Below, piece after piece: positions 5,751-63,377 of a stretch of 64,000 nucleotides of DNA. Within the stretch, counting starts at the first letter, position 1; every line of letters begins with the position of its first letter. The notes below the pieces were generated by a model. The model searched no databases, was not told where the DNA came from, and saw only the letters and a program-made list of their open reading frames with translations. Source of the DNA: Naegleria gruberi (taxonomy: Eukaryota). The DNA lies in NCBI GenBank assembly GCA_000004985.1, contig GG738848.1. The stretch is one strand, 5' to 3'. The position numbers and the translations under genes were made by a program.

Positions 5751-7454
5751 ATGTCCCAACAACAATTGGAAACACTTGTATCTCGTTTGGAAAGTGCCGT
5801 CTCCAAATTGGAACACTTAAAGTTCAGTGGTGCTTCTTCATCATCTGATGATTCTGCTACTGGTGAAGCTCCATCTGTTGGTGCTTTCAAGGAATACTTG
5901 AATACCAATGTTAAGCCTCTCGTTGATACTTGTACTACAATCGGTGCTGAATGTGCTAAGGGTGTAAGTAGTTTGTTATTATTATCAACAGATGTTCTAA
6001 ATAGTAATTTATTATTAATTTGTTAATACATATCATTATTTGAAAATTGATGATAAAATTGATCTTTATTTGATCACTATTTATTATTACAATATGCATC
6101 ATCATCATCATCTCAACTAATATTAAATCTTGATGATCAATAACATGTTAAAAACAATAATAACATCTTATAATAATAGGGTGAATTTATTAACAATGCT
6201 TTCAATGAAATGTTAAAAATCGTCACATTGGCTAGTAATAATAAGAAGCCATCTGATGAAGAATTTGGTAAGATTTTGAGTGGTTTGGCCAAGATTTTGA
6301 AAGATTCTGGAGATTATCGTTTCAAGAATAACAAATCTGAATTCTACAATCACTTGTATTCTATTGAAGAAGGTTTGAAGTGTTTGGTTTGGCCAACAGT
6401 TCCTGCTCCTGTTTCTTATGTTAAGGAAACTGTCAATTCTGCTCAATTCTACAATAATAAGATTTTGATGGGTTATAAGAATACTGATAAGGTTGAATTG
6501 CACAGAGGTTTTGTTAGTCAATTCAAGACTGCTATTGAAGAATTATCTGTCTATGTTAAGGAATATCACATGACTGGTTTATCTTGGAATGCTAAGGCAA
6601 CCACTGTTGCTACTGCTGCTGCTTTGAATGGTCAAGTAGCAACTCCAACTGCTACTCCATCTGTTCCTTCAACTCCATCAGTTGGTGGTGGTGTTCCTCC
6701 TCCTCCATCAAAGATTATTCCAGTTAGTGAAGATTTGATTAAGAGTACTTCTAGTGCTAAGCAAGATTCATCAAGTGGTAGTGCTGGTGCTTTGTTCGCT
6801 GAAATTGCTGCTAGAAAGGATAATGCTAGTGTTGGTTTGAAGCACGTCACTAAGGACATGAAGACTAAGAATCAAACTGATAAGCCACCTGCAATCGTTC
6901 CAGGTTCTACTACTGCTACTCCAAAGTCTGGTGTTGTTGGTGGATCAACTGCTCAAAAGAAGGGTACTCCAAAGTTTGAAAAGGATGGTTCTGGTAAGAA
7001 ATGGCAAGTTGAATGGCAATCAGGTGCTCATGATTTGAAGATTACTGATACTGCTTTGAATCAATCTGTTTACATGTACCAATGTAACGATACTATGCTT
7101 GAAGTTTCTGGTAAGGTCAATAACATTGTTCTTGACAAATGTACAAAGACTTGTCTCATTCTTGACAATGTTGTCAGTGGTATTGAATTGGTCAACTGTA
7201 AGAGTTGTCAAGTTCAAATTAGAGGTGCTGCTCCAATCCTCTCCATTGATAAGACTGATGGTATCATTGTTTACTTGTCTAAGGAAGCTATCAACTGTAG
7301 AGTTGTTTCTGCCAAGTCCTCTGAAATGAACATTTGTGTTCCTGATTTGGATACTGAAGATGATGTAATTGAAATTCCACTCCCAGAACAATTCGTTCAC
7401 ACTTTCGATCCAAAGACCAAGAAGTTCAATACTGATATGATGAAGCACGAATAA
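5751..7454 (+). CDS. cap: adenylyl cyclase-associated protein (CAP/Srv2), 2 exons
   Basis: Exons are 5751..5963 and 6180..7454, with a 216-nt intron GTAAGT...AATAG that is phase 0 and keeps frame. The N-terminus MSQQQLETLVSRLESAVSKLE matches the CAP N-terminal helix. There is a polyproline tract VPPPPSK. The C-terminal CARP/beta-helix region reads WQVEWQSGAHDLKITDTALNQSVYMYQCNDTMLEVSGKVNNIVLDKCTK...SAKSSEMNICVPD. Confidence 0.85.
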
Positions 7455-7456
7455 AT

Positions 7457-10400
7457 TTATTCCATGTCAATTGATTCTCTCAAATAGTCATATAATTTCT
7501 TTGCATTCTCTTTCGATTGCATAATATCACTCAAATCTGAAACACTCATATCTGCCAACTCGTATAAATTCGTAACAGAATTAATAATTCTTGGCATATT
7601 TTCAACTGTTACACCTGGCAGACGAGCAAGAAATTCAATAGCTTGATTAGAGCTTTCATTTTCCTCCACATGCTCACTCGTACCAATAGCCTGAGCTAAA
7701 GAAACATCAGGTTCATAATCTTCCTCATTCTCTTCCATATCATAGTCATTATATTGTAAAACTTGATGTTTCATCATGTAGAAGAATTTACCAGTTGCTG
7801 CTGGTGTTCTTGAATAAGCAATTTTCAATTTTGGAAAATGGAGTGCTGTTAAGACAAGTTTTGTCATTATTGATTTTTCTTCAATTTTACCATCCTCATA
7901 TGAATAAAATCCAGAGTAAGGATCAGGTAACACAAATGCTTCATCTTGTTCAAATTGAATTAAAAGAACAGCATGTTTGTAATATTTGATCATTTTCTCT
8001 GATTGTTGAAATAATCGTCCCGAATTTAAACTTTGCCACAAATCTGTTGTGCTCTTTCTTTCTACACAACAATGTTTTGATACAATATAATCTCCCACCG
8101 ATATTTGAATTGGAATTACTTTATATCCACTAGAGTTCAATAAAGATGGTAAAGTAGATCTAAATTCTCTTGCATCAATAACAATCTTGGATTTGTTTGA
8201 GTCATTACTTGGTGCAGATGGATTCAATGCAAAATTAAATTCACTAAAATTAACTTGTTGTGAATTACTAATTGCCATATTACCACCTGCTCTTCTTGTA
8301 TCTGAAAATGCTTTTGGTACTAATTTTGAACTTTCCGATTGAATGACTCTTTCTCTTAAATAAATATCTGAAATTAAGGTTTCAATTGTTGGTACTGTTA
8401 AACGTCCATAAGAAACAATTAATTTCTTAAATGCTTCCTTTTCTCTTTCAACTGTTGCTTGATATTGTTTATATTCTACACTATTTCTATCATATGATAA
8501 TAAATAGACATGAAGTGGTATGTATGGATATTTACATTGATAATGTTCAATTCTTCTAATAAATGATAAATCATTTTCATATAAAATTACAAAAGATGGC
8601 ATTAAATCATCTAATATTGTACTTGTATCATATAGTGAATGAATTAAAAGTTGCATTTCTTTTGGTTCATTCAATTTTTTAACAACCTTATCTGGAATTA
8701 TTTCAAAATATTCATCAATTGGATGTTTTTTTAGATTCATAATCACATCATTATCAAGATCATGATTGGAATTATCATCATTGCTATCTACTGATGGAGG
8801 TGGTTTAAAATCTTCAAATTTTTCATCCTCATCTTCGTTTTGAACTTTTTCATCATCACTATCAATTTCATAAACAAGAATTGATTCTTCCAATTTACTC
8901 TTTTCAATTTCCTCTTGATTTTCTTCAAAATTTGAAACATGTTGACTTAATAAATCCAATTCACTATTTTGTAATGATTTTCTTTTAACTCCCTTCTTTT
9001 TCTTTGATTCTCCAAGTTTTTCTTCTTTCTGTTTATCAATTTTTCGTTGTTGTTTCCTAATTTGTGGACCAATTAATTTATGAATTAATCTATTTAATAG
9101 AGTTTTACCACCTAATTCTAAGTAAGTTCTTATTTGTGAACAAGTTTTTTCATTAGAAGCTAAAATTAAAACTCTTCCATTAATATTTGGATTGTTATTA
9201 TTTTGAATAGTTTCATATATACTTTCAATAGTATTTTCTAATTGTTTCCATTTTGGATTTTCTTCTAAATGAAATTGAATGGAATCAACTGATACATATG
9301 GATCTATTGTTCTATTACTTTCCATTTGAGTTAGAGTTTTTTGTTTTTTTAGAGGTGATTTAACCTTATTTGATGAAACTGTATATATTCTATCTTTGGC
9401 ATATTGATAAATATCAGATGCAGTATCAGTTGTTAACCATGTTGAAGATGGTATTCCACTTTTACCATCTGATAATCTTAATGTTTCTAAATAATCATAA
9501 AATGTAACACAATCATAATTTAACAAGTAAAATAGTAAACTTCTCATTACTTTTAAATCTTCAATATGTTTCTTTGATTGGTGTCCAATTCTATTCCAAA
9601 TTGGTTTTAATTGATGTGTTATAATTTTATGAAAACTCTTAAAATAACAATCTTCTATTTTAATTTCACTCAAATCCAACTGAATATATGATTCAATGGT
9701 TAATATTTTCAATTATTTCATATTAATAACATACAGATGGATTATTCTTTTTTAAAGAATTAATTGCAGTTGTAATAATATCAATAATAGCATTTTCAAT
9801 TAATCTCATTTTTTGTGACATGGGTACAATAATTTCCTTTACAATTGGTTGATATTTCATTAGAGATTGTGAAACTTCCAAATCAAAACGTGGTTTAAAT
9901 TCAACTCTATCAATAAATAATAATCTCATTAATTGTTCCATTCTTGAAAAACCTTTTGTTAATTCTTCAGCATTTTCAGTAAAAGCTTTAACAAAAGCAT
10001 CCATTGAATTTGATAATCTAAAAACACGTAATATAAATGATTCAGTTGATTTATCAGTAATTTCATGTGCATTTAACACTACAATTCCACTAACATGTTT
10101 AATTGGTACTTTATCATTCAATAAATCAACAATTAAAATTCTACTCGTAATAAATAAACATCCACCTTGATTATATAATTCAACTCTTTCATTAATTGTA
10201 AAAGTTGATGTAATTGATTTTGGTAAATTTTCAATTTTAATTAAACCACTCTCTAATAATAATTGTTTAATTAATTCTTCTTCATAGGGTTTAGAATTAA
10301 TAATTAAAACTAATTGTGATGGATCACAAAATTTCCTAAGAAAATGTGTTATCATAATTTCAATTCCTAATCCTTTAGCCATTAATAAAAGTAAATTCTT

Positions 10401-15258: not shown

Positions 15259-18200
15259 TTACTTCAATTCATCATCATTGGATGAAATATTATCAGCATT
15301 GGAAACAGCAACTATTGGAACATAATCAAGAATTGAAATTGCCTTCTTGTTCAATTCTGCAAACAAGTTTGCAACAGAAACGAGTGAAGAGTTTGATGAA
15401 AATAATTGTAACAAATCTTCACAAATATCCATTACAACTTTGTAGTCATTACAAAGAATTGAAAGGAATTTGTGGAAATTTTGTAAATTCTTTGGATTGA
15501 GAGGTTTTTCAAGTTTAACACGTTTAGCGACCTCTCTAAATAAGTTTGTACTTGTTGGAAGATATTGTCTGAGTGAGTTAAAATATTCCAAATCTCCTTT
15601 CTTTACACAGTTATTGTAAATTGGTTCAATCCAATCAGACATGGTGTTAATATCATAAGCATTGGCTATTATCAATGATTCCTCAAAGTCTGCATGATTT
15701 TGAATAAAGGTTCTTGCTTCCTTCAATCCAAGTTCAACAATTATTGGCAAATTTTGGAGCTTCTTCTTATTTGGGAGCTCATTGTAAAACTTCAGTTGAA
15801 GTTTGACGAGAGCAGCCAAGTTAGTTGACTTGACAGCAGTTTGACAACAATCTTCTTTGGCTAATGATGATGCTGCAGATTCAAAATTTTCACAAACAAT
15901 CTTCATAACATGTTCTAGTGGTACATGTTCATCTAAATGTGTAATTGATTGATTACTAGAGACACTTGTTGAAGAATCGTCCTTGTCTGTTAATCTCTTA
16001 TGAATTACCTTGATTCCTTTACATCCTCTATTATACAAATAGGTTCCATATTCTTTTAACATGTTAAATCTCAAGTAAACCATTGCTAACTTTTCATTTT
16101 GTTCAGGGAATTTAGTTTGCACGTACGATGATAAGGCCATTTTCAATTGGTTGTTATTATCATGGTCTGTGTTCTTGTTCTTTTTGAGAATAAGCTCAAA
16201 CTGTTCATTTTCTATTAAGATATCAAAAAGGAACGTAAGTTCTGAAAAGTCAGGAATGGAAACAAGCAACCTGACAATAAGTGAAAAGTCGTGATCATCT
16301 AAAATTTCTTGAATAATTGGTCCTTTGATTCTCTTTAAAATTGACTCTATCCCTTCAAAACTTGAAGACATATGATAACAATGATAAGCTCTAATAATAA
16401 TTTCAACTTTGCATTTCAAGTTCAAAATACCTCTGGATTTCTTCTTGTGTGGGCTATCGTCATTTGTTTCATCATCAGAGTCTATTAATTTGATTAATTG
16501 ACGAGCAATAGATGATGGATCTTTTGCAATATTGGCAAATTCTGCAAATTCATCCATGGTGCATTTGACTAGATCGAATTGTTTTTGTGACTCTTTGAGA
16601 GTTTTGATTGGCTTACTCTTAAGTTGTTGGTTAAATTGTTTAAAGAATGTTGAAGTTTGCACACTTGCTGTATAGGAGCTAGAAAAATCAAAGCTTGAAA
16701 ATGAGCTACCAGAACTTGTTGATAATCTATCATCAAAATCTTCGGTACTTGAGGTACTGTCATTTGCTCCACTGTTATTATTATTGGCAGATGAGGATTG
16801 GAAATAATCTTCAATTAGAATTTCACCTCCTCCCTCTTCTTGATTTTTGAATATGGAAACATCCTCGTTTCTATAATACTCAACATAGGTAGAATAGAGA
16901 TAATTAGCACAAACTTTAGAAGCTCTATCGCTATCAAGATTACGAAGTTGAATGAAGGAAGAACAAACTTTAAGCTTTTCCTTTCCAAACATCATTAGCA
17001 AGAGTTTTAAAACTTCAAAATCATCCTTTGTAATAACACTATCATAACTTAATTGGAGAATTCTTCCAATTTTGTGATTGAGGGCAATAACTTTGAGGAA
17101 GTGTTTGGAACCTTTCATCTTATAACCAAAAGATAAAAGAGACATCTTATCTAATATTTGTTGAATATCGTCAAATTCATCAATATTGAGGACCATATCT
17201 TTAAGAGCAGAATAAATATTTGATGGAAGCGTTTTGGCAGCAAAGCTATTATTTCTCTGATCAGAATCTTGATACATTGTCTTGATTTGTAATTCATAAC
17301 CTTTTGCCAATGTAAGAGCAACTTCAATAATTTGTAAAATATTACTATTATATGAATAGTAATTAGCAAGCTTCTTTGCTTCTTTGTACTGTTCTTTTAG
17401 TAATAAATTATCAATGACCTTATCTAATAATTCATCCATATTGTTGATATTGGTTGGTATATTTGGTTGGTTTGATCGTTTTGAGGAATTTTGAGTATTT
17501 TCAATAAATCTGGCCTCTAATGGAGCTAAAACTATTGAGGCGCCACTTGTAAAAAAGTTATCTGCAGAGTTGGAAAGTAAAACAATACTCTGTACAAGAT
17601 AGTCAATATCTTTTTGATTTCTACATGGAGTTGGATTTGTTTTTGTCATTTCAATACTACCTCTCTTTTTGGTTATATTATAGGTTCCTTCATACCAAGA
17701 CAGTGCAAGATTCAACAAATGTAAAACGCTGGTAGAAGAATATTCTGATTGGTAGAGTATTGCTTGTTCTAAGAAGAATTTAGCACCACTCTCTTGCGGA
17801 TATCTGTGCTTGATGAAAAGATCATTCACTTTTGAATAGGCAGTAATGATATCTGTGGTATTAGTAACATAGAGTGAACGAACTTTTTGAATCTTGTAAA
17901 GAGCTTGAGAGTATGTAACCTTATCATTTGAATAGGTAATCTTCTTTCTATACATGACAATAACTTGTCTTGCCTCTTTGAAACAGTTATTTTCTATCAG
18001 AGATTCAATAAAATGATTTGGATTTCCTGTAAAGACATTGAGGTGATCGATTTCTTGTACTTCTCCAGACTTGAAAACTCTTTCAAATAATGAATTTACA
18101 CTGTACATATTTTCAAACTCATTGGTAACATCAACAATTAACGAGAATTGTGTCTGATGAAGTAACTGGAGATAATTGGTACGTTTGTATTGCGTGTTCA

Positions 18201-21200
18201 AAGACCTGGATAGTTGTTGTGCTAGAGCTGTTGAAGTGGAGACAACCCATGTTAAATCGCCAAAGTTAAAGTTTGGAGCAACCCCACTATTCAAATCCTT
18301 TACAACTTTAACAAATGTCTTCATTTCATCTGTTGCCTTTCCAATATTTTCATGAACATATGATTCATAGAATTGTAAGAATGAAATAATTGGATTATTA
18401 ACATCAAACAATTCAAATGATTGTGTAATATAGTGAACACCGCTTTGTTTTTCATCTTTCAGGAAATTATTTGAACAAAAATCTTGAATATATCTATCAA
18501 TACTTTCTGTCAACTTTCTCATATTTTGTTTCTTAATAGATATGGTTTCATTCTTTTTCATTTCGGTATTTGTTAACTTTTGCTTTAAAGATTGCAAATA
18601 ACATTTCATACAAGTGAAAAGTTCAGACATTGTATAATCTTTAGGGAGATAACAAGTGGCAACTATTGCAAGTAAAGGTTCACTAAGAGCAAGTGATCTA
18701 TTTAACAAATACTCAACAACTTCATCATTTTTCAAGTTGAATTCTTCAGCTCTCATAATTTCTAGGAATGCCTTGAATATAATATCATTTTCTTGATTTA
18801 AATCCGTAAGAATATCGTTATTATTATTCTCTATTGATAACTTAGTTTGAATATGGTCACGTTTTGATTTCATATCTCTCAGAACAATAATTAAAAATTG
18901 TTTGATGACATCAGGCATGAATTCTTCTACAATACTCATAACTGTCTCAATAGGAGCATTAATATCTTGAGCATGATAAAGGAATGAAATCCATTGTCCT
19001 TTCTTGGCAGTAGATTTTAATTGATTTACAAATGGTGGTAGACCATGTAATTCAGAAAACACAGATAAGAGCTTCCAAGGAGAAACATAAATCTTGTGTC
19101 CACTATTTCTCATACCATCTAAAATTTGAACTTGTGATGGATCAGTGGAATTCTTAGAGTTATACTCCTTCTCTAAAAATTCTTTGACTGAAATGTCAAC
19201 AATTAGCATGCTTTCAGTTGCTTCTTCCAACATTTTAAGAATTTTGAATTGAGGATGGGATAAATAATGTTCGTAAACGGAACTTGTAGATTTTGATACG
19301 GAAATTTGTAAAAATTCTTCGACGAGCTTCTTAGAAGGACTATCAACATGTTGTGGTTGATCAACTTGAGCAACAAAAGATGGATGAAAATCAAAAATTC
19401 TTCTAGCTACTTTTGTTTCAACAAGGATGACCTTGGCATACTTATCAGAATACTCTTCAAAATTGCAAAGGTCTATGAACATTTTACATGAGGAAGTGAT
19501 AGCTTGATTAGAAAAATTATTCAATGCAATTTCTCTGACTCTATCACAAAGATTCAATTGGGATTCCTTGTCCATATAATTTGAAAGGGGAAGTTGTTCG
19601 TTCTTTCCTCCATACAGATAAGGTGAGTAAGCATCATCTATTAAATCTTTCAATTCATTATCCTTGGTAGAATTGACTTCACTGAGTAACTCCTTGTAAG
19701 CTTCCAAAGGTCTTTGATTCATCAAATAGTAGGAAATATCAAGAACCTCCTTGATACTTGATTCATATGTCGAAAAGTTGAATAAGTCATCTCTATTGTT
19801 AATCTTAAATTGAGTAGGGGTTAATAAATTAAACTCTCCTTGATTAATTTCGTTACCTTCGTCCATCATTAAAATTTCATCAATAGACATATCAATATGT
19901 GTATGTTTAAGCATATCAAATAGAGAAATATCTTTTTGGCATGAAACAATGTTACCTCTTGCAATTTCGTTATTGCAAAGGTTGATAGTTTCATTTTCAG
20001 ATTGACTCTCCTTTGATAGGGTTGGGTTTTCAGAATGCTTTGTACTTTTTTCATTAAAAAGTGCAGAATGGAAGGTTGGATATGGCTGAAGCGCTTTGGA
20101 TAAGTAAGAACTGTTCAAGTAATGCTCACTTGTAATTGGTTCTTCCAAAGATTCATGAAGAGTTTTTGGAGAATACATTTGTGTGGAGAGAGCCATGATT
20201 GGATTTTCATTAAGAATGCTATTCAAATTAATCTTTTGATTATCATTATTTCTAAGTTTAGATTGGGCGTTAATGAATGATAAATTAAACATATCCTTCT
20301 TATTGGAGAGTAAGAACATATTTAACCATGATGGTCTCTTATCTTCAGTGAAGGATTTATCTAATGCATCCCAAATATTAAACTTGTCAATATACCTAAA
20401 GCAAATACTAGGAATATTTTTCTCAATACAGAAAGAAATAAAGTCTTTGTGGAATTTGCTCATTTCTCCCACTGGATGTAAATAAGTTGTGTTGATTGGG
20501 TTGGAAACAATATCCTTATCAGAATCGAACATATTGGTAGGATCACATTCAATAGACAAAGTTTCTATTAAATTAGATGGAATATCATTTGAAAAAAGTT
20601 GATAGGTTGCACAAAATCTTTGCAACAAGGAAATAAAATCCTTTGTATCTTCTCTAATGAATATTCCTCTGAATGCAAGACTATTCAACAATAGCTCTTT
20701 CATCATTGGACTACAAAATTGTAATTGTTCTCTGACAATGTTGATAACTTCTTGACAACTTTCAACAACCTGTTGCATCTTGGAAGAGTAACCTTCAGGA
20801 ACATAGAGAATATCTCCATCTTCTGTTTGATAACATTTCACACTTTCATTCTTCTTTTTCAAGTTTCCGTAGTATTTAATTGCACTCTTTGACCATCTCA
20901 CCAGTCCAACAAAATCATGATGAGCAATACAAAAGGCAAGCTTTGATTTGTTGGACTCATTATCGTGATAATCTTTTTCAAGTAGAATTCTCTCTCTTGT
21001 ATGTTTATCCCATCTCAATAACCAACTCAATTTAGATACAAAGTAAGAGGACTTTGACTTTGATAGTGCTAAAATTTTCTTGTTAGTGCTAGATATTGAA
21101 GCACTTCTCATTCTTGATTGAATAGACACTTTACGTTTAAAAACTAGGCTATCTGAACTATCTGAAGATACTGGTGATTCAACAACAACACTACTTGTAA

Positions 21201-24200
21201 TGTGGTGGAGTGGCGTAAGTTGTGCATCATCAGAAATATCTCCAATAACAATGTTTTTTTCCACTTGATCAAAATCTTCATCTGTGAAAGGATTATACTG
21301 TCCGTATGGAAGCACCTTTTCAAGTACTTTTTGAATGGATGTATCAGGATAAAGTTCTTCCAAAAGTTGAAGAAATTCTATTACATCTTGTTCCTCTTCT
21401 GAAAGCTTCTTCATTCTCTTCAATTCCTTAATTAAATGGTTTCTAATATTCTTGTCGATCGTATTAAAAGCCAATTCTCTTAAATGTTCTGTAACATCTT
21501 CTCCCAAGTTTTCTAGCATTTTAATAGCAAGATTATATTCACCAGAAACTAAATGTTCATATATTACAATAAAGGAAAGTTGTTGAAAGCTTTCAAAATC
21601 TTCAATTTCGAAAAAGTTGTTAGTATTGTCTTCATCCTCACTATCACATTCAGCTGCAGACTTGTGCTTTACGGTTCTATTTTTCAAGAATGAGTAACCA
21701 AGCGAAACAAGACCCTTAGTCAAACAATCAACAATTATGGACTTATTTTCCATATTCTTCCACTTGTGATAAAGTTCTTCATTGCCTCTCATTAAAATTT
21801 TGTCAAACATTTCCATTTCATTCTTTTCGTCTGCATCAGAAATTTCATTCTCCTCGGCATCATAATTATACATATCTTCTTCATTGTTAATCGATACACC
21901 TGTCTTCATTTCGGAACCGAAGAAGGATAAATCATTAAAATTATCACCTCCAGAAAAAGACTTTGTTAAAATTAAGTTAAATCCTGTTGTATAAATTATC
22001 TAACTTACCAAATCCAGGTCTATTCTCTTCTCTGAACGAAGAGTTTCACTTCTCTTGCTTTGAGAATTGAATGAACTAAGTAAATCTGCTGCTATTGGTT
22101 CATTTACTTCTTCTTCCTCTTGATTATTATATATCAAATATGATCTCAATAGAGAAATGATACTAGATAAAAGCAAAACTTCTTCTGGTTTTGACAAAAC
22201 TTGCTTGGAACTCATGATATCCTCAATGATTGAAATAGTGTTAGAAGATGGATTATTAATAATGTCATTTGAAGCACTTGTAATTTCATCAATTTCAGAA
22301 ATGGTTTGACTTTCCATAAACTTGTCTAACTTTTTGGCATTCTTAATCTCCAACTTTTTAATCACAGAATCAGTACTTTCAATCTTAATAGGTACTCTCT
22401 TATCTTTGAATATAAATATAGAATCAAAAGTATTTGGCTCTTCTTCACCCAAATTATATTCATTCTTTGAACCCAGCTCTAAAATTCGTTTTTCAATCAA
22501 TGAGAGAATGTAAGATATGGCTGTAGTGATAGTATGAATTTTAAATTCACTATCTTTTGAAAATTTAGTGTCTTGAATAAACTTGGCAATTATATAGCAA
22601 ACATTTAACTCTTGCTCCGGATCAAGATGTTGCAAAGTATCTTGTACAACAGCAAGTTCTCTATTTCTCAAACCAAGCTCTATAGCATGAACTGCTAATG
22701 ATTTTCTGTCCCAGCCATTAAGATCACATAACCTCTCAGCTAATCTTTGTCTTTCGTACTTGATAAGATTATTCAAAAGAATGCTCTTGTTGGTGTTTAC
22801 ATTAATAAAGAAAACTCCATGTTTGTGGGCATCCTCTGTTATGTAAAAGCAATGTACATCTGAGCAGTAAATTTGGGAAATGAAATTACCCTTTTCCAAA
22901 CATATTGCTGTGGTTTTTCCTGAAAGCATGTCATAAACTTGAAGGAGTCTTATATCAGCCTCCAACAAGTCAAAAATGATGTAGCACTTGTTATTTGTTA
23001 TGATATAGTCATGAATTTTAGAATTCTTTTCAACTGCATGAATAACAGTAATGCCTTCATCAATGTGGCTGATATTTTCATCTTTCCTAGGAGAAAGCAT
23101 AAAGTTGTGACTTGATGTTCTCGAAATTAAAGAGTCTTTTCTCGAAAATGACTCTAAATTACTATCTAAACTACCAATTGATCCTCTTTTGATTAACAGT
23201 GAATCCCTCATTATGGTTTCCTTTCGTTGTTTGTTTGCAACTACAAATGGATAATTGCTCTTTGTATCTTTCTCAGTACCAAAATCATCACCTGAATCGA
23301 TGAGAACACTAGTAGATCTCTTTTGAGGTTCTGTATTATCAAACCAGTGAGATTGATAAAAATTCTCTGAGGTGTAACAGAAAGGTAAAAGTGATTCTAT
23401 TGGCTCAATAGTATCCGTTTTCTTTTCACTTTGATTGAGCAGTTCATTGAAGGAAAGTTCTTCGTCCTCCTCATCACCTTCAATATCTTCCTCTTCTTCT
23501 TCATCGCCTTCAGTATCATCTTCTTCATCAAAATCTTCTTCTGTTCGTTGAACATGCTCTTCTTCTTTAACATTTTCCGTTTTTAAATCCAAATCTATAA
23601 TATATACATCATTGTCACATGTTGCTGTTAAAAGTAATCCGTTATTCGATAATTTAAAGTTACATAAATTTACAATATCACAATTTACAAATCCAACTTT
23701 CTTCTTTTTAGAGATATCCCAAATATCAACTTTGTTTAGCATTTCAGAAGGGCTGGAAGAAAGTGAGCAAAAAAGAAACTGTTGATATGCCAATAATTCT
23801 CTATATGTATGATCCTTTGGAGCTTGTATTGTAAAATTACTACAAATTTGCAATAAAAAGTTCTGTAGAGAAACTTCACAAACATGATTGTTATCGAATA
23901 ATATTAAAAAGTGACGATCTTCAAGAATTGGAAGTATTGCTTTCATGGAGACCTCTTCTCCAAAATTAGCATTCTTGATGGAGTTTGTAATTTTTGAGAA
24001 TGATATTGTGAATTTTTTGACAATCCATGTTACTCTTTCATTCTTGAATTTAAATATTGTTTCCGAATCGTCTGTTAAGAAATTAATTAAAATTTTCTCA
24101 TTCCTTTCTGATGGACTAAACGTCTCATCTTGGTCACTTTTAGAAAAGAATATAATTTCCAAAGTATCATCCCTAGCAACAAGACAATAACACGAGAATT

Positions 24201-24651
24201 TAGACTGAATGCCTCCTGTTGTGTGTGACCTCATCCAATTAATCCTAATTTGAAATTAAAATACTATATTATCATTCAATACATACGATTTAATATTTCC
24301 ACAATTATTGATGGTAATAAATTCTCGCAAAAATTCAAATGTTGCATTATCGTACTGTGTACTTTCCTCCAAAAAAAAGAATTGTAACTTGTCATTAGTT
24401 CTATCCAATAAATAAATAATTTCATTATTCGGAGAATAATATGATTCAATATTGTTCGAGCATTGATGAATTGGCAAACCGGAAGATATTTTCACAGCCA
24501 AAACTGATGCCAAAGAAATTGAACTTGGTGGCATCATAAAAAAAGGTTGATGATATTCCTCCTTACTAATTTTAAAATCATCATCATCCTGATCAAAGTT
24601 TGTTGGAGTCATCGGAGATGATAACTCTGAGATGACGAGGTGATTTGGCAT
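15259..24651 (-). CDS. giant hypothetical protein, about 3100 aa, 3 exons
   Basis: Exons are 24651..24287, 24244..22009 and 21960..15259. Introns are 24245..24286 (42 nt, GTATGT...TTAG) and 21961..22008 (48 nt, GTAAGT...AAAG), and both keep frame. This joins the ORFs 24256..24651, 22000..24234 and 15259..21909 from the ORF track. I recognise no catalytic motif. The protein is acidic with S-rich stretches and is probably a scaffold-type protein. Confidence 0.55.
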
Positions 24652-56682: not shown

Positions 56683-59090
56683 ATGAGAACTTTGGACCAT
56701 CACAATCTTTGTAAACAAACATTTTCACTTAAACCCTGGAAAAAAATGCCTCCAAAGACCTCCTCAAAAACAACCTCTTCTGATGATGTTGATGAAAGCA
56801 GTGATGTAACCACAAAAAAGACGGTAACAAAATCGACCACCACCAAAACAACAAGTACTTTTGTTAATAAGCCTTTCAAGGTACCTCTAAAATCACCACC
56901 AAAGACTGCAACTTCATCTTCAGCAACAACAATATCTGCTGCTTCATCTTCTTCATCTTCTACAAAGAGTGCTGCTAAAAGTAGTGTTACTGCAAAGGCT
57001 AAACCACTCTTTGAACAGTCCCAAATTTTAGCTCCGAGCGATCCATCTTTGGATGATTCTTTTACTTTTGATTCTCCATTGAAAAACAAGAAGAAGAATG
57101 TGGAAAAGGAAGATGATGAGGATAGTGATAATGATGTAAATGAAAAAAAGAGAAAATTGGAAAGCATTTCAAAAGCAAAGAAGGAAAGTGAAAAAGTAAA
57201 ACCCACTAAAAAATTGAAAGAATCATTGAGTACAGTTTCCGATGAAAAGAAACCCTTCTCTCACAAGGAAATTAAACCAAAATCATCAAACAAGACTTTT
57301 ATTATTGGTGTAAGTGGTGGAGACTTTGCTCAAAAATCAGAAGTTGTGAATATCATTGAAAAGGTAGGTTTGAGAATATATAACTCGTATAACGATCCTT
57401 TTCCTTCATTGAATTAGTTATCAAAAAATACAGAATACGAATATGTGGAAATTGGTAGTTCAAACTTTGAAAGTTATACTCATCTGGTTTGTCTTGATCC
57501 TAACCCAAAGAAAACCATCAAGTTAATTTATTCTATTGCTTTGAATGTTCCAATAATCAAATCATCTTGGTTATATGAGAGTGAAAAATGTAATTATTTT
57601 GTAAAGGAAAGTGATTTTTATTTCGCTCAATATATCAGATCAAGAAGTGAGGGAATTTTGAAAGGAAAAAGATGTTATATTTTAAGAGGAGAAGTGACAT
57701 TTCCATCACCAGAAATATGTGAAAGATTTATTGAACTAAGTGGAGGAGCTTGTGTGGAAGATATTACTCGAGCAAATATTATACTTTCAACAACAGGAGC
57801 AAAAGATTTTGATAATATCATTCCAAGACACACTTCCAGTATGCCCCTATTCCCAGTGGTAACTGTTCGTTGGTTAGTTGACTGTGTTGATAAACAACAA
57901 TATCAAGATCCAAATGAGTATAAGGTATGTGTTTTTAATAATATTTACATTGTGGATTTACAATTCGAAAGGATGATTACTTTTACAGTGAAGCTTGTGT
58001 TTTGAAAGAAAGAGTGCTTGCTGAAAAATCAGCTCGAAAGCATATTGGATGTTTGAGATTATTGACTGATATTACTTGTTCAGCTAATATTATCCCATTA
58101 TATGCAGACAAAAAAAGTATTGTACTGGGAAGAGCAGCTACAGATGTGGATTTCACTGTAGATACTGAAAACTCAAAGAAGAATCCTGTTATTTCTAGAA
58201 TGCACGCTAAAATTGTACAGTTCCAGCAAGAAAGTAACAGCCAAAGTAAGGAAACCATACTCAAGTGGAAGCTCATTGATTCTTCCTCGAATGGTACCTT
58301 TGTAAATAATGTTAAGGTTAAGGAAGCCGTTTTAGCTAATGGAGATATTATTTGTTTCGGTCATTCCAAGGCCTCAGTTAAAGTAGGAGAACAAATTCCA
58401 TTCGCAAATACCAAATGTAAATATGTGTTTGAGACTGAGGATATTGTTTCAAATGAAGAAGCCGAGAAGGAAAAGGAGAGATTAAGAAAAGAGAATGAAC
58501 TAATGAGATTGGAAATTAATGGTCTAAGAGATTACAAACAAAAATCAAGTATGGTAAACCATCAAAAAGAGAAGGAAATTATACGTCTGCAAGAATTACT
58601 TTCCAAAAATCAGAGAAAAGAAATTGTCGAATTTCCACTCTGTCACAAGCTTTATGTATTGGATACAAACGTTCTCGTTGAAAATATTTCAATCCTTGAG
58701 AATCTGTTAAAATCAGCCAATATTACATGCCTTATCCCATATACAGTTATGGTTGAGTTGGATAAATTAAAGACGAGAACAGGTTCAGTTGCCATTAAGG
58801 CAAGAGAAGCAACCAGATTCTTGGAGGAATGTTTCGAAAACAAGACTTATCCAAATTTGATGGGTCAACTTCCAAACCAACAACTGAAAGGTATTGAAGA
58901 TGGAGGTGTTTTTGTTTCATCTGCTGATGATAACATTATCAATTGTTGCCTCTATTTCAAAGATCACGTACTCAAACGAAAGGAAAAGAATCATGAATTA
59001 ATTCTTTTAACATTTGATAAGAATATGAGAGTTAAAGCAGGTCTCTTAAAGATTGTTTCTCCTTCAATTCTTCCATTCAACAATAATTGA
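56683..59090 (+). CDS. BRCT-BRCT-FHA-PIN multidomain protein, 3 exons
   Basis: Exons are 56683..57363 (there is an alternative ATG at 56746), 57418..57924 (or ..57917) and 57989..59090. Intron 1 is 57364..57417, GTAGGT...AATTAG, phase 0. The donor of intron 2 is ambiguous between GTATGT at 57925 and GTATAA at 57918; only the latter keeps frame with the acceptor at 57988. BRCT1 is FIIGVSGGDFAQ...THLVCLDPNPKKTIK...SSWL. BRCT2 is RCYILRGEV...ANIILSTTGAKDF...VRWLVDCV. The FHA domain is IVLGRAATDVDFTVD...ISRMHAKIVQ...LIDSSSNGTFVNNVKV...GDIICFG. The C-terminal PIN-like domain is LYVLDTNVLVEN...CLIPYTVMVELDKLK. Confidence 0.6.
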
Positions 59091-59183
59091 AGCTTGTTCA
59101 TGTATAATGGAATTGATTCTCCTCCAACATTTCGATAGAGAAGATTAAATAAAATCATAATTGATTGCAATATTACAAAAAAA

Positions 59184-60593
59184 ATGAGTGACAATGCTAG
59201 TAGTAATACTTCCACATCATCATCAGGTGCAGGAACAACAAATAATTCTTCAGTAGAAGAAGAAGAAGGTGGATCATCCCTCATCAAGAAACTTTTAGGT
59301 TTTATTTTTCTCTTTTATTTATCCTTCGGAATTATTAATCCTGTCAATATTGAACTCTTTGAAAAGATTAATTCTGTTGGAAGTGTTGATGGAAAACATT
59401 CCAAGCATACAGCTTCATTATTTGGTGCATTGTTTGCACTTCCTGGATTAATATTCTTCTTTGTGAGTCCGGTGATTGGAAATTTATCTGATCGATTGGG
59501 AAGAAAATTGTTCCTTACCTTGTTTACTTTTTGTTATACTTTAACATTTGGAATTTACTATTTATTGTGTCATGTTGTGACAAGTCCAGACGAAGAATTG
59601 AATGAAATTTTCATCTATGTCAAGTATAATGGATTGAAATTTTACATTGTTGCTAAAATTATTCAAGGATGCAGTTTGGATATTATTCCATTATGTAATT
59701 CCTATATTGCTGATAATTCTAAAAAGGAGGATTTTGCAACATACTTTTCATATATCTTGGCAGCTATGGGTTTGGCCACAGCCATTGGACCAATGGTGAG
59801 TGGATTTGTGGTGAAGAATTTTGGAATGACACAAGTATTTCAATTGATTTTTATCACTTCTAGTATTACAACATTGTTTGCTGCAAAGTTTGTTAAGGAG
59901 AATGCAAAGAATGACGCTATTCAACACCAAGAATCTTCACTCATCGAGAAGGTTACTACGCCATTCAAGTCTCTGTACAATATTCTTACTCAAGGAGATT
60001 CTGTTTTGATTTCATTGATAATTTCTAAATTGTTAAGCTCGTTTATTTCAGTTGGATTCTTTTGTATTGTTACACAATTTACAAGAATCAAATATTCATT
60101 TGGACCTACTGAAAATGGCTACGTCTTGACACTTATTGGAATAACTGCCATTCTTTCAAATTCCGTTCTATCCAAATTGATAATGTACCTCTCAAAAGGA
60201 AAGGAAACTAATGGATTGATTATATCAGGTGTAGCCAATGCCTTATTCTTCCTTTCTTTTGTGGTGTGTGGAAATGGCGCCTACGTATACTATGGAACTG
60301 TTTTCTTCCTGTTCGGTGCTAAAGAGGATCCACTCAGGTCTGCTCTCATTTCCAAGGTATTCAATGATCCAAATCAACAAGGAGTATTGAATGGATGTTT
60401 AGGATCTATTTCCACAGTTGGAAGAGTAATATCCCCAATCATCTTTTCATCATTGTTAGATATTTTCACAACGAGTGAAACCATGCCTCGTATTGTGGAT
60501 GCTCCATTCATTGCCTTGACAATTACACAAGTTATTTGTGTATTGTTTGTAGTGAGAGCAAAACACTTGATTGAAAAGAATAAGGGAGAATAA
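59184..60593 (+). CDS. major facilitator superfamily (MFS) transporter, 469 aa
   Basis: There are 12 predicted hydrophobic segments. The MFS signature GNLSDRLGRKLFL lies between TM2 and TM3. Confidence 0.75.
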   Translation: MSDNASSNTSTSSSGAGTTNNSSVEEEEGGSSLIKKLLGFIFLFYLSFGIINPVNIELFEKINSVGSVDGKHSKHTASLFGALFALPGLIFFFVSPVIGNLSDRLGRKLFLTLFTFCYTLTFGIYYLLCHVVTSPDEELNEIFIYVKYNGLKFYIVAKIIQGCSLDIIPLCNSYIADNSKKEDFATYFSYILAAMGLATAIGPMVSGFVVKNFGMTQVFQLIFITSSITTLFAAKFVKENAKNDAIQHQESSLIEKVTTPFKSLYNILTQGDSVLISLIISKLLSSFISVGFFCIVTQFTRIKYSFGPTENGYVLTLIGITAILSNSVLSKLIMYLSKGKETNGLIISGVANALFFLSFVVCGNGAYVYYGTVFFLFGAKEDPLRSALISKVFNDPNQQGVLNGCLGSISTVGRVISPIIFSSLLDIFTTSETMPRIVDAPFIALTITQVICVLFVVRAKHLIEKNKGE

Positions 60594-61913: not shown

Positions 61914-63377
61914 TCATGATCTCTTTCTTTGTTTGTTTGGAGGAGAAGGTGTACCTGCCACTTCTTCATCACTTGCATTTGAAAGAACATGTCGTTGGGC
62001 AATCATTCCTTCACTGTCATCTTGAACACCATATTCATTGCTTCCACCATTACTTGAATTTGAACTGAAAGATTGGACAACACCCAATTGAATATATCTT
62101 TCATTTTCACCATTAATACCAAATGAAGCACATGGCATATCTTCATTAAGGAATTGATTATGAAGAGATTTTCCTGATGGATTAGATATAATCTCTGGTG
62201 TGACAAATCTATCTTGATTATCTATATATATGGATGATTCATCAAGGTGACTTCTCTTTCTCTTATTAATAGGGGTAGAGAATTGATCACCAGAAGAGAA
62301 ATTATCATCAACCATTTGATTGTCATTAACTTGTTGCTGTTGTTGACTAGCTCTTCTGGATGAAACTTGTTGGTTTGTAGTAATAGTTGAAGTTTCTGCA
62401 GTAGCCATTGTTTCATCATCTGAATCAATAGTTGCCATTAAAAATACAATTTCTACATCCTTTGCTTGTGATTCTGATCTTATTACAATTGGATCTCCTC
62501 TATTTCTTGTCATTGAAAAATGAATATTATATTCAGATAATTCACAAAATCCTATTAATGCCTTTAAATCTTTAAAACTAAAGGTCATTTCACTTTCTGC
62601 TTGAATTGTTTGTTCTGAACCTGGTACTGTTCCTGCAGGTGGGGTTGGTCTATTACTTGCATCATTTTGAACAAATGCCTGTTGAGCTACATTGAATGAT
62701 TCCAAATTTACAGTATCAATAGCAAGTGATGTTTGATTTCCATTTTGTTTTTCTCCCTTTTCAGCATATGATTTCATTTGAATATAGTATTGTGTAAATC
62801 TTCCATCAGTTTGTGATAAATTTGGTTGATTTTGTTGTGATGTAGTAATAACAACTCTCTTTCCCAAAAGAAAGGTAATATCACCAGCCAATTTACCAAA
62901 TGGTGATAATAAATTAGATAAATATGAAGAATTGACTTCAAATTCAAAATCTCTAGAGAGATCATGTTCTGGATTGACCACATCACATGGTGAACAATTA
63001 ATTTGATAAATCTTTTGTACTTGAGAAAGTCCAAACGAATCAAATATAACTTGACTATTATTCCTATCTAGTGTAATTTTCAATTGATCTAAATTAGCAG
63101 CATTCTTAAATACGTGAACAACATTCTTCAGAGTTAGCCTAACAATTTTCGGAGCAGTTTGTAAAAAGGAATATCTATCAAAAAACGAATGTAAAAATGT
63201 GAACCTAGCAAATGTTGATTTTGAAGCATTGACAGTAACAAAAGAAACCCTATCAGGTTTCATATCAAATATTACTTCCTCTCCGACTTTGGCCAAACAA
63301 TTTATCATGTTGGCAAATGTTTTAATATGTTGTCTATTCTTTAATCCAGCATCCATTTTTATGTACAGCCTATACAA
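61914..63377 (-). CDS. RAD9: Rad9 checkpoint clamp (9-1-1) subunit homolog, 487 aa
   Basis: The N-terminal PCNA-like fold aligns with Rad9: MINCLAKVGEEVIFDMKPDRVSFVTVNASKSTFARFTFLHSFFDRY compared with LGKAVHSLSRIGDELYLEP...[24 protein letters not shown]. The second domain reads FSFKDLKALIGFCELSEYNIHFSMTRNRGDPIVI. A long S/Q-rich C-terminal tail is typical of Rad9. Confidence 0.7.
   Translation of the reverse strand: MYRLYIKMDAGLKNRQHIKTFANMINCLAKVGEEVIFDMKPDRVSFVTVNASKSTFARFTFLHSFFDRYSFLQTAPKIVRLTLKNVVHVFKNAANLDQLKITLDRNNSQVIFDSFGLSQVQKIYQINCSPCDVVNPEHDLSRDFEFEVNSSYLSNLLSPFGKLAGDITFLLGKRVVITTSQQNQPNLSQTDGRFTQYYIQMKSYAEKGEKQNGNQTSLAIDTVNLESFNVAQQAFVQNDASNRPTPPAGTVPGSEQTIQAESEMTFSFKDLKALIGFCELSEYNIHFSMTRNRGDPIVIRSESQAKDVEIVFLMATIDSDDETMATAETSTITTNQQVSSRRASQQQQQVNDNQMVDDNFSSGDQFSTPINKRKRSHLDESSIYIDNQDRFVTPEIISNPSGKSLHNQFLNEDMPCASFGINGENERYIQLGVVQSFSSNSSNGGSNEYGVQDDSEGMIAQRHVLSNASDEEVAGTPSPPNKQRKRS

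What the first reader, a model, noticed from the sequence alone, without database searches (positions are those of the whole stretch)
56683..59090. Unusual BRCT-BRCT-FHA-PIN domain combination
Two BRCT repeats are followed by an FHA domain (GR...SR.HA...NGTFVN...GD.I.FG), a coiled-coil stretch and a C-terminal PIN-like nuclease fold (LYVLDTNVLVEN...VMVELDKLK). Phospho-peptide readers (BRCT, FHA) fused to a PIN nuclease is an architecture I cannot assign to a named family. It could be a damage-targeted nuclease. XPF and Rad9 are in the same window, although they are not adjacent to it.
Basis: partly seen in the sequence, partly recalled or inferred. Interest (0 to 1): 0.55.

Follow-up and report, generated by a model that had tools for sequence, protein, structure and literature searches.

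The report
Phospho-reader-tethered SWT1-like PIN nuclease
This Naegleria gruberi gene encodes a real, conserved protein that joins two kinds of phosphoprotein-binding modules (a BRCA1-type BRCT pair and an FHA domain) to an intact SWT1/SMG6-type PIN nuclease, probably an RNA-cutting enzyme steered by phosphorylation signals. It is an unstudied lineage-specific variant of a known enzyme family, and public databases mis-annotate it as a "multidrug-efflux transporter".

Summary
A three-exon gene (CDS 56746-59090, +; introns 57364-57417 and 57925-57971) encodes a 747-aa protein. It has a disordered Ser/Thr/Lys-rich N-terminus with a KKRK motif, a tandem BRCT, an FHA domain, a ~50-residue helix and a C-terminal PIN_4 domain.

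A family profile of the BRCT pair matches the BRCA1 tandem BRCT over both repeats (E=5e-21). Pfam gives FHA 9e-14 and PIN_4 1e-25. The predicted PIN fold matches the SMG6 PIN (Foldseek 1e-9).

All phosphate-binding residues (S190/G191/T239/K241; R429/S450/H453/N482) and all four PIN acids (D606/E637/D695/D724) are conserved in seven full-length homologues: Naegleria fowleri, Willaertia, two Acrasis paralogues and two metagenomic eukaryotes.

The window is N. gruberi. The public model (D2V1Y8, "multidrug-efflux transporter") wrongly fuses this gene to the downstream MFS gene. A 2011 paper noted that model as the only non-plant FHA+PINc protein.

The PIN is closest to SWT1 endoribonucleases, but the SWT1 C-terminal (HEPN) domain is absent. 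Plant PS1 shares the FHA-then-PIN order but has no BRCT.

The most likely function is a nuclear, phosphorylation-recruited endoribonuclease. A DNA-damage role is possible but untested. I rate it a new variant of a known kind, of moderate interest.

The parts
56746..59090 (+). Whole coding region of the BRCT-BRCT-FHA-PIN gene, stop codon included. An in-frame upstream ATG at 56683 is a possible alternative start.
   Evidence: The translation is identical to public N. gruberi protein P0155 for residues 1-736.
56746..57363 (+). Exon 1 (res 1-206). It encodes the disordered Ser/Thr/Lys-rich N-terminus, the KKRK motif (res 134-137, 57145-57156; possible NLS) and the start of BRCT1.
   Evidence: composition S 21%, K 18%, T 13%. 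KKRKL is conserved in N. fowleri and P0002.
57364..57417 (+). Intron 1 (54 nt, GTAGGT...TTAG). It contains an in-frame TAG.
   Evidence: The junction peptide 'EKLSKNTEYEY' matches N. fowleri 'KKLSKNSEYEC'.
57292..57615 (+). BRCT repeat 1 (about res 183-272, spanning intron 1), with the phosphoserine pocket S190-G191...T239-x-K241.
   Evidence: The family profile aligns to BRCA1 S1655/G1656/T1700/K1702. These residues are conserved in 7 of 7 members.
57649..57924 (+). BRCT repeat 2 (res 284-375), to the end of exon 2.
   Evidence: Pfam BRCT/BRCT_2 at res 284-374. AF2 pLDDT is 80-90 for this repeat. Foldseek finds BRCA1 and MCPH1 tandem BRCTs.
57925..57971 (+). Intron 2 (47 nt, GTATGT...AAAG).
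   Evidence: The junction peptide 'EYKDDYFYSEAC' matches 'EYRDEYYYSAEC', 'EYLDDYFYSGEC' and 'EYKDEYYYNEEC' in homologues.
58047..58436 (+). FHA domain with conserved N- and C-terminal extensions (res 401-530; Pfam core 425-505). Phosphothreonine-binding residues are G428-R429, S450-R451-x-H453 and S480-x-N482-G483-T484.
58455..58607 (+). Long charged helix (res 537-587). It may be a coiled coil or a rigid spacer between FHA and PIN.
   Evidence: The AF2 model shows one helix at model residues 373-423. The heptad pattern is weak. Length and sequence vary among homologues.
58644..59060 (+). PIN_4 nuclease domain (res 600-738) with active-site residues D606 (58662-58664), E637, D695 (preceded by D694) and D724.
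   Evidence: Pfam PIN_4 E=1e-25. Residue-by-residue alignment to the SMG6 PIN. AF2 pLDDT is about 90, and Foldseek gives 2dok/2hww at E=1e-9. Residue conservation is shown.
59055..59138 (+). Not part of the protein. This is the spurious 84-nt 'intron' used by the public gene model to fuse this gene to the downstream MFS transporter gene (59184-60593).
   Evidence: It would delete the C-terminal 'VSPSILPF', which is conserved in Willaertia as 'CSPSVLPF'. Orthologues end here.

Best explanation
The gene encodes a nuclear endonuclease, most probably an endoribonuclease. Its SWT1/SMG6-type PIN domain is delivered to its site of action by two phosphoprotein readers in the same chain: a BRCA1-class tandem BRCT that binds a phosphoserine motif and a canonical FHA domain that binds a phosphothreonine motif.

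Proposed working model:
- A kinase marks a chromatin- or transcription-associated partner. Candidates are a checkpoint-kinase target such as the phosphorylated H2A tail or a mediator, or the phosphorylated RNA polymerase II CTD.
- The BRCT pair and the FHA domain dock on these marks.
- The long helix spaces, and possibly dimerises, the C-terminal PIN.
- The PIN then cuts single-stranded RNA nearby, such as nascent, aberrant or damage-associated transcripts, and so creates entry points for exonucleases, as yeast Swt1 does.

What is shown: the gene structure, the four domains, intact ligand-binding and catalytic residues, conservation of the whole architecture across Heterolobosea, and greater similarity of the PIN to SWT1 than to SMG6 or PhoH.

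What is inferred: RNA as the substrate, nuclear location, phospho-dependent recruitment and the identity of the ligands.
For: Gene and architecture:
- The gene model and 747-aa product are supported.
- Pfam finds PIN_4 at 1.1e-25, FHA at 9.3e-14 and BRCT at 7e-8.
- Full-length collinear alignment to N. fowleri (58% identity), Willaertia (51%), two Acrasis paralogues and metagenomic L001/L002 (26-29% over about 600-650 columns) shows the architecture is old and under selection.
- Three metagenomic loci also carry BRCT upstream of FHA-PIN on the same strand. In two of them the pieces are joined by a 32-nt intron.

Reader domains:
- The BRCT profile matches BRCA1 (4.6e-21), MCPH1 (1e-13), BARD1 (3e-11) and MDC1 (2e-10), all phosphopeptide-binding tandem BRCTs.
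- The pocket residues S/T190, G/S191, T239 and K241 are invariant or conservatively replaced.
- The FHA residues R429, S450, H453 and N482 are invariant.

Nuclease domain:
- The PIN aligns residue for residue with the SMG6 active site, including E1282, which is the site of the 2hwx mutant.
- The PIN fold is predicted with high confidence and is nearest to the RNase-type PINs SMG6, Nmd4 and Dis3.
- The best PIN-only sequence hits are annotated SWT1 from animals and fungi.
- The SWT1 profile scores 114 bits on the N. gruberi PIN, against 90 for SMG6 and 72 for PhoH. The order is the same for all 8 family members.
- Acrasis kona's copy is already auto-annotated 'transcriptional protein Swt1'.

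From the literature:
- Yeast Swt1 is a nuclear ssRNA endonuclease that depends on the equivalent first Asp, D135 (PMC2613419).
- BRCA1 BRCTs can read the pSer5 Pol II CTD (PDB 9qpx; PMC12805184).
- KKRK-type basic motifs lie in the N-terminus.
Against: - There is no experimental datum for any member of this family.
- The placement of the PIN inside PF13638 is not robust. A neighbour-joining tree keeps the family monophyletic but does not nest it clearly within SWT1. The SWT1 profile was also built from more sequences, themselves selected as hits to this protein.
- The SWT1 C-terminal domain (PF21693, the HEPN region) is absent.
- BRCT1 could not be modelled with confidence (pLDDT <50), so the pocket geometry rests on sequence alignment alone.
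- The helix has a poor heptad pattern, so dimerisation is doubtful.
- Nothing identifies the phospho-ligands or excludes DNA as a substrate.
Confidence: 0.55

Rival explanations
1. DNA-damage-targeted DNA nuclease. The BRCT pair and FHA bring the PIN to phosphorylated chromatin at lesions, where it cuts DNA flaps, ssDNA or the DNA strand of R-loops.
For: FHA combined with a BRCA1/MCPH1/MDC1-type tandem BRCT is otherwise typical of double-strand-break response proteins (one search hits; established knowledge of NBS1 and MDC1). The wider PIN-like superfamily includes DNA 5'-nucleases such as FEN1 and EXO1 (PMC5499597).
Against: The domain is PF13638/PIN_4, not the FEN1/XPG clade. Its nearest sequence and structure relatives (SWT1, SMG6, Nmd4, the Dis3 PIN, PhoH2) are all RNases (PMC5499597). 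No DNA-binding module such as H3TH or HhH is detected. The proximity of XPF and Rad9 is not informative in a eukaryote.
Confidence: 0.15
2. Heterolobosean counterpart of plant PS1 (Parallel Spindle 1). It would be an FHA-PINc regulator of spindle or division geometry acting through decay of specific mRNAs, with the BRCT pair as a lineage-specific addition.
For: The order is the same, with FHA N-terminal to a C-terminal SWT1/SMG6-like PINc. The PS1 PINc is reported to be closest to Swt1/C1orf26 and SMG6 (PMC2581889). This locus was listed as the only non-plant FHA+PINc protein (PMC3071787).
Against: - No plant PS1 appeared among the best 150 of 333 hits of an exhaustive HMMER search.
- The nearest FHA-only relatives are protist FHA-RING proteins, not PS1.
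- Plant PSL FHA domains carry His where this family has the canonical Asn482 (PMC3071787).
- Plant proteins are 1000-1500 aa with a long low-complexity linker and no BRCT.
- Independent fusion of common domains is as likely as common descent.
Confidence: 0.15
3. Catalytically silent adaptor. The PIN would serve only as a binding module, as in SMG5, and the protein would be a phospho-dependent scaffold.
For: PIN domains have repeatedly become pseudo-enzymes, for example SMG5 and Utp23 (one search lists the SMG5 PIN among fold matches; PMC3860261). One Acrasis paralogue has substitutions next to the active site: D639V, D694N, N608S.
Against: The four core acids D606, E637, D695 and D724 are retained in all seven full-length members, including the divergent paralogue. 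Conservation of T607 and N608 and of the 'DDxILNCCLYF' motif also argues for a working active site.
Confidence: 0.1
4. Gene-model artefact: the exons belong to two genes, or the true product is the 1220-aa fusion with the MFS transporter given in the public annotation.
For: The public N. gruberi model (P0155) does fuse this gene to the MFS gene through a GT..AG interval at 59055-59138.
Against: - Orthologues in N. fowleri (745 aa), Willaertia (702 aa) and Acrasis (647 and 627 aa) are single BRCT-FHA-PIN proteins that end just after the PIN and have no transporter.
- The supposed intron encodes the conserved C-terminal 'SPSxLPF' and the stop codon.
- The MFS gene has its own ATG 93 nt downstream.
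- The exon-junction peptides are conserved.
Confidence: 0.03

Closest known systems
SWT1 (yeast Swt1 / human SWT1-C1orf26 / Drosophila CG7206), nuclear PIN endoribonuclease of mRNP quality control
   Same: The PF13638 PIN domain has all four acidic residues. It gives the best sequence matches outside the family itself and the highest profile score. The Acrasis orthologue is already auto-named Swt1. Both are likely nuclear.
   Different: Canonical SWT1 has a C-terminal HEPN dyad (Pfam SWT1_3rd), and some animal copies have an N-terminal WW domain (PMC3710099). Here the PIN is the extreme C-terminus, there is no HEPN, and a BRCT pair plus FHA lie upstream. Placement within PIN_4 is not phylogenetically robust.
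Plant PS1 / PSL (Parallel Spindle 1): FHA ... PINc
   Same: An FHA domain lies N-terminal to a C-terminal SWT1/SMG6-like PINc in one chain. An RNA-decay-based regulatory role has been proposed (PMC2581889, PMC3071787).
   Different: Plant PS1 has no BRCT pair. It has a much longer low-complexity linker (AtPS1 is 1477 aa). Plant FHA has His at the Asn482-equivalent position. No sequence-level link was recovered in the searches here.
SMG6 (EST1A) PIN domain, the NMD endonuclease
   Same: It is the closest solved structure (2dok and 2hww: phmmer 3e-7, Foldseek 1e-9). The active-site positions align one-to-one: D1251, E1282, D1353 and D1392 with D606, E637, D695 and D724.
   Different: There is no EST1/14-3-3-like domain. 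The profile score is lower than for SWT1.
BRCA1 / MCPH1 / MDC1 class of tandem BRCT phosphopeptide readers, and the FHA+BRCT2 damage mediators NBS1 and MDC1
   Same: The two-repeat BRCT unit has the S-G...T-x-K phosphoserine pocket. It is combined with a canonical FHA domain in one protein.
   Different: The domain order is BRCT-BRCT-FHA, whereas NBS1 is FHA-BRCT-BRCT. An enzyme is attached, whereas those proteins are non-catalytic scaffolds or an E3 ligase. No evidence here ties it to DNA damage.

Membership tests
PIN_4 (PF13638) nucleases | Significant match to the family model over the full domain | tested here: met
   E=1.1e-25, 90.9 bits against a cutoff of 21.9, profile positions 1-127 of 132.
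PIN_4 (PF13638) nucleases | Four conserved acidic active-site residues | tested here: met
   D606, E637, D695 and D724 align to SMG6 D1251, E1282, D1353 and D1392. They are conserved in 7 of 7 full-length family members.
PIN_4 (PF13638) nucleases | PIN fold | tested here: met
   AF2 pLDDT is about 90 for res 600-740. Foldseek finds the SMG6 PIN at E=1e-9 with TM(target) 0.65-0.73.
SWT1 | PIN more similar to SWT1 than to other PIN_4 subfamilies | tested here: inconclusive
   The top PIN-only hits are annotated SWT1. Profile scores are SWT1 114, SMG6 90 and PhoH 72 bits. However, the neighbour-joining tree does not nest the family in SWT1, and the profiles are unequal in depth.
SWT1 | C-terminal HEPN dyad / SWT1_3rd domain (PF21693) after the PIN | tested here: not met
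   There is no PF21693 hit even at E<=1, and only about 10 residues follow the PIN. Fungal SWT1 P0170 and P0116 do have it. The architecture is described in PMC3710099.
SWT1 | ssRNA endonuclease activity; genetic or physical link to TREX and the nuclear pore | not testable with these tools
   Known for yeast Swt1 only (PMC2613419).
Plant PS1/PSL | FHA N-terminal and PINc C-terminal in one polypeptide | tested here: met
   FHA at res 425-505 and PIN_4 at res 603-737. This locus is cited as the only non-plant case (PMC3071787).
Plant PS1/PSL | Sequence-level orthology of FHA and PINc to plant PS1 | not tested
   Plant PS1 sequences could not be obtained; the paper's supplement is described as a table of names and accession numbers and was not opened. 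None appeared in the top 150 hits. Plant FHA has His at the Asn482-equivalent position.
BRCA1-class tandem BRCT | Two BRCT repeats that align as one unit with a solved tandem BRCT | tested here: met
   Profile positions 27-219 align to BRCA1 chain residues 8-209 at E=4.6e-21. Foldseek finds BRCA1 and MCPH1 tandem BRCTs at E~1e-5, although BRCT1 is poorly modelled.
BRCA1-class tandem BRCT | Phosphoserine pocket (BRCA1 S1655, G1656, T1700, K1702) | tested here: met
   S190, G191, T239 and K241. The residues are S/T, G/S, T and K in all seven members.
FHA domain | Conserved Gly-Arg, Ser-x-x-His and Asn-Gly phosphothreonine-binding residues | tested here: met
   G428-R429, S450-R451-x-H453 and N482-G483 are invariant. 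Pfam E=9.3e-14.
SMG6/EST1A | N-terminal EST1 / 14-3-3-like TPR domain | tested here: not met
   There is no EST1 or EST1_DNA_bind hit. A true SMG6-like hit (P0027) has both.
NBS1-type damage mediator | N-terminal FHA immediately followed by a tandem BRCT; non-catalytic | tested here: not met
   The order here is BRCT-BRCT-FHA and a nuclease is attached.

The most novel reading that the evidence does not exclude
This would be a natural fusion that couples checkpoint-type phospho-readers directly to an RNA endonuclease. The BRCA1-type BRCT pair and the FHA domain would dock on kinase-marked chromatin or on stalled, phosphorylated RNA polymerase II. The SWT1-type PIN would then cut the local RNA, such as nascent transcripts, R-loop RNA or damage-induced RNA.

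If true, Heterolobosea would reveal in a single polypeptide a pathway of phosphorylation-guided RNA clearance at damaged or arrested transcription sites that other eukaryotes assemble from separate proteins. It would also suggest a general rule: SWT1-type nucleases are aimed by interchangeable peptide readers (WW in animals, FHA in plants, BRCT2+FHA here).
Probability: 0.25. Interest if true: 0.65.

Novelty: new variant of a known kind. Interest (0 to 1): 0.42.

Why it matters
SWT1-type nucleases are poorly understood outside yeast. Human SWT1 and plant PS1 have no known substrates or recruitment mechanism. A version in which the nuclease is hard-wired to two well-understood phospho-readers makes the recruitment logic directly testable: phosphopeptide pull-downs would name the partners. 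It could also point to how the animal (WW-PIN) and plant (FHA-PIN) relatives are targeted.

The family may be useful as a marker of Heterolobosea, which include the pathogen Naegleria fowleri. N. fowleri has an orthologue, FDP41_009261.

On the practical side, the public N. gruberi entry (XP_002681986.1 / D2V1Y8, 'multidrug-efflux transporter', 1220 aa) is a chimera of two genes and should be split.

Tried and rejected
- Alternative splice models: donor 57368 with acceptor 57433, and acceptor 57988. I rejected them because of frame or because homologues support 57364-57417 and 57925-57971.
- Word-indexed search with the full protein was swamped by the low-complexity N-terminus and gave 3 hits. 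With the PIN alone it gave a single hit. The exhaustive HMMER search and a profile search were needed.
- A neighbour-joining tree of 153 PIN domains kept the family monophyletic but did not resolve its position among SWT1, SMG6 and PhoH.
- AF2 with shallow alignments (14 and 8 rows) modelled PIN, FHA and BRCT2 but not BRCT1, and gave no trustworthy inter-domain packing (pTM 0.36 and 0.39).
- Plant PS1 sequences could not be retrieved, because the paper's supplement is described as a list of names and accessions. The PS1 orthology question therefore stays open.
- A heptad analysis did not support a strong coiled coil.
- I considered the two-gene and transporter-fusion readings and rejected them.
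- I considered operon-like meaning for the nearby Rad9 and XPF genes and rejected it, because this is a eukaryotic chromosome.
Full report
**1. The observation**

The window is AT-rich (about 32% G+C) and gene-dense. They join through two short GT..AG introns, 57364-57417 (54 nt) and 57925-57971 (47 nt), into a 2244-nt coding sequence of 747 codons.

I chose these splice sites over the alternatives because the junction peptides are conserved in homologues. 'EKLSKNTEYEY' corresponds to 'KKLSKNSEYEC', and 'EYKDDYFYSEAC' corresponds to 'EYRDEYYYSAEC' and 'EYLDDYFYSGEC'. The resulting protein is also identical over residues 1-736 to a public protein.

**2. Where the window comes from, and an annotation error**

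An exhaustive HMMER search and cluster look-ups show the window is Naegleria gruberi NEG-M. The locus is annotated as XP_002681986.1 / D2V1Y8, 'multidrug-efflux transporter', 1220 aa.

That model equals my protein up to residue 736. It then removes 59055-59138 as an intron and reads through the 5' leader into the downstream MFS_1 transporter gene at 59184-60593 (Pfam).

The fusion is almost certainly wrong, for three reasons:
- The excised stretch encodes the C-terminal 'VSPSILPFNNN*', which matches Willaertia 'CSPSVLPFQ*'.
- Orthologues in N. fowleri (745 aa), Willaertia magna (702 aa) and Acrasis kona (647 and 627 aa) end just after the PIN and have no transporter.
- The MFS gene has its own ATG.

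[quoted passage not shown] That is evidently this locus. The FHA+PIN combination here has therefore been seen before, in one sentence. The BRCT pair, the corrected gene and the wider family were not described there. Neither BRCT nor FHA is mentioned in the main text of the comprehensive PIN classification (PMC5499597).

**3. Anatomy**

*N-terminus.* Residues 1-165 are Ser/Thr/Lys-rich and predicted disordered. They contain KKRK(L) basic motifs that are conserved in relatives.

*BRCT pair.* Residues about 183-375 form a tandem BRCT.
- Pfam detects two BRCT stretches.
- A profile of eight family members aligns across both repeats of BRCA1 at E=4.6e-21. The next matches are MCPH1, BARD1, MDC1, PTIP, Brc1 and Mdb1, which make up the phosphopeptide-binding class.
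- The BRCA1 pocket residues S1655, G1656, T1700 and K1702 correspond to S190, G191, T239 and K241. These are S/T, G/S, T and K in all seven full-length members.

*FHA domain.* Residues 401-530 are a canonical FHA domain (Pfam 9e-14).
- G428-R429, S450-R451-x-H453 and S480-x-N482-G483-T484 are invariant.
- There are family-specific conserved extensions on both sides: R404-L405, and C524-x-Y526-x-x-E529.

*Helix.* Residues 537-587 are predicted as one long helix. Its heptad pattern is weak, so 'coiled coil' is possible but a charged spacer helix is equally likely. Its length varies among homologues.

*PIN domain.* Residues 600-738 are a PIN_4 domain (1e-25).
- The AF2 model is confident there (pLDDT about 90).
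- Its best solved matches are the SMG6 PIN (E=1e-9), Nmd4, an archaeal PIN and the Dis3 PIN.
- D606, E637, D695 and D724 align with SMG6 D1251, E1282, D1353 and D1392 and are conserved in every member. The divergent second Acrasis paralogue changes only neighbouring residues.

**4. The family**

Only 13 proteins in 1.84 billion representatives match at E<=1e-10. The members with the full architecture are:
- N. gruberi, N. fowleri and Willaertia magna
- an unassigned ENA contig (P0002, whose product stops at the start of the PIN)
- Acrasis kona, with two paralogues
- three sets of metagenomic or read-archive contigs

In the last group a prokaryotic gene caller split the gene. The BRCT ORF lies immediately upstream on the same strand. 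For L001 and L002 a 32-nt GT..AG intron with a CTAAC branch site after 'KPIVNEK|W' restores a single 592-aa and 610-aa protein.

Naegleria and Acrasis proteins align collinearly over about 600-650 columns at 26-29% identity. The architecture therefore predates a deep split within Heterolobosea. I found no member outside that group or its unidentified environmental relatives, although the library includes EukProt transcriptomes.

**5. Which known family**

*SWT1.* Outside the family, the best PIN matches are proteins annotated SWT1 or SWT1-like from insects, a sponge (WW+PIN), a scallop and many fungi. One Acrasis copy is already auto-named 'transcriptional protein Swt1'. Profiles built from SWT1, SMG6-like and PhoH-type PINs score 114, 90 and 72 bits on the N. 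gruberi PIN, and the order is the same for all eight family PINs.

This is supportive but not conclusive. The profiles differ in depth, and a neighbour-joining tree leaves the position of the monophyletic family unresolved.

Canonical SWT1 is [WW]-PIN-HEPN-HEPN (PMC3710099). Fungal hits have the Pfam SWT1_3rd domain. The Naegleria protein has nothing after the PIN. It therefore works like, and is probably derived from, an SWT1-type nuclease, but it fails one architectural criterion of that family.

*Plant PS1.* PS1 shares the FHA-then-PINc order and a PINc reported to be closest to Swt1/C1orf26 and SMG6 (PMC2581889). Several things count against orthology:
- PS1 lacks BRCT.
- It is about twice as long.
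- It has His where this family keeps the canonical FHA Asn.
- It did not surface in my searches.
- The nearest FHA-only relatives are protist FHA-RING proteins.

I could not obtain plant sequences to test orthology.

**6. Mechanism**

*Shown.* All three recognition or catalytic modules have intact key residues under long-term conservation.

*Established for relatives.*
- Yeast Swt1 is a low-abundance nuclear endonuclease that cuts single-stranded RNA without sequence specificity. It needs the first active-site Asp and acts in perinuclear mRNP surveillance (PMC2613419).
- SMG6 is the NMD endonuclease.
- BRCA1-class BRCT pairs bind pSer-x-x-hydrophobic motifs, including the γH2AX tail (MCPH1, MDC1) and the pSer5 Pol II CTD (BRCA1; PDB 9qpx; PMC12805184).
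- FHA domains bind pThr.

*Inferred.* The protein is a nuclear RNase whose site of action is set by phosphorylation of one or two partners. I put about 0.55 on this overall picture. Within it, I cannot choose between damage or checkpoint signalling and transcription-coupled surveillance.

*Rivals.* These are a DNA nuclease at lesions (0.15), a PS1-like division regulator (0.15, not exclusive of an RNase mechanism), an inactive scaffold (0.10) and a gene-model artefact (0.03).

**7. Context**

Rad9 is only 2.8 kb downstream. The immediate neighbours are a mitochondrial carrier, an LRR protein and the MFS transporter. In a eukaryotic chromosome this proximity is not evidence of shared function.

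**8. Verdict**

The finding is real and correctly described at the domain level. It is not unassignable. It is a lineage-specific variant of the SWT1/PS1 type of PIN nuclease, carrying an unusual double phospho-reader. It is mis-annotated in public databases and essentially unstudied.

It suggests a pattern: SWT1-type PINs are fused to different peptide readers in animals (WW), plants (FHA) and Heterolobosea (BRCT2+FHA). It also offers an experimentally tractable handle on how such nucleases are targeted. Interest is moderate (0.42). Novelty is a new variant of a known kind.

Noticed in passing
window 59055-59138 and 59184-60593: The public N. gruberi protein XP_002681986.1 / D2V1Y8 ('multidrug-efflux transporter', 1220 aa) is a chimera. 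An 84-nt pseudo-intron removes the conserved C-terminus and stop codon of the BRCT-FHA-PIN gene and fuses it to the adjacent MFS_1 transporter gene.
   Followed up: yes
window 61917-63377 (-) and 7460-9712 (-): A Rad9 homologue (PF04139, E=4e-39) lies 2.8 kb downstream. An ERCC4/XPF-family nuclease (PF02732, E=4e-24) lies 47 kb upstream.
   Followed up: partly
window 57364-57417 and 57925-57971; L001 around 9900-9935; L002 around 5975-6010: The introns are very short: 54 and 47 nt in N. gruberi. The environmental relatives have a 32-nt intron with a CTAAC motif at a conserved position ('KPIVNEK|W'), which made prokaryotic gene callers split the gene in two.
   Followed up: partly
window 57253-57288 (res 170-181) and 58056-58061 / 58416-58433 (R404-L405; C524..E529): There are conserved motifs of unknown role. 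'PFSHKxIKPKS' lies just before BRCT1 in Naegleria and Willaertia. Invariant residues flank the FHA core (LRL before it, CxYVFE after it), which suggests an extended FHA module specific to this family.
   Followed up: no
P0007 / P0008 (Acrasis kona): Acrasis has two paralogues (45% identical). One (P0008) carries D639V, D694N and N608S next to the PIN active site but keeps the four core acids. It may be sub-functionalised.
   Followed up: partly
P0194 (Ephydatia), P0170 / P0116 (fungi), P0018 / P0019 (hoverflies): SWT1-type PINs occur with different partners. The sponge copy is WW+PIN. The fungal copies are PIN+SWT1_3rd (HEPN). The insect copies have a C-terminal PIN with a long N-terminus that has no Pfam match. 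The accessory domains of this nuclease family look interchangeable.
   Followed up: partly
window 15259-21909 (-), 22000-24234 (-), 3346-5520 (+): These are large ORFs of 2216, 744 and 724 aa. The 744- and 724-aa ORFs gave no Pfam match at E<=1e-5. The 2216-aa ORF was not scanned.
   Followed up: no
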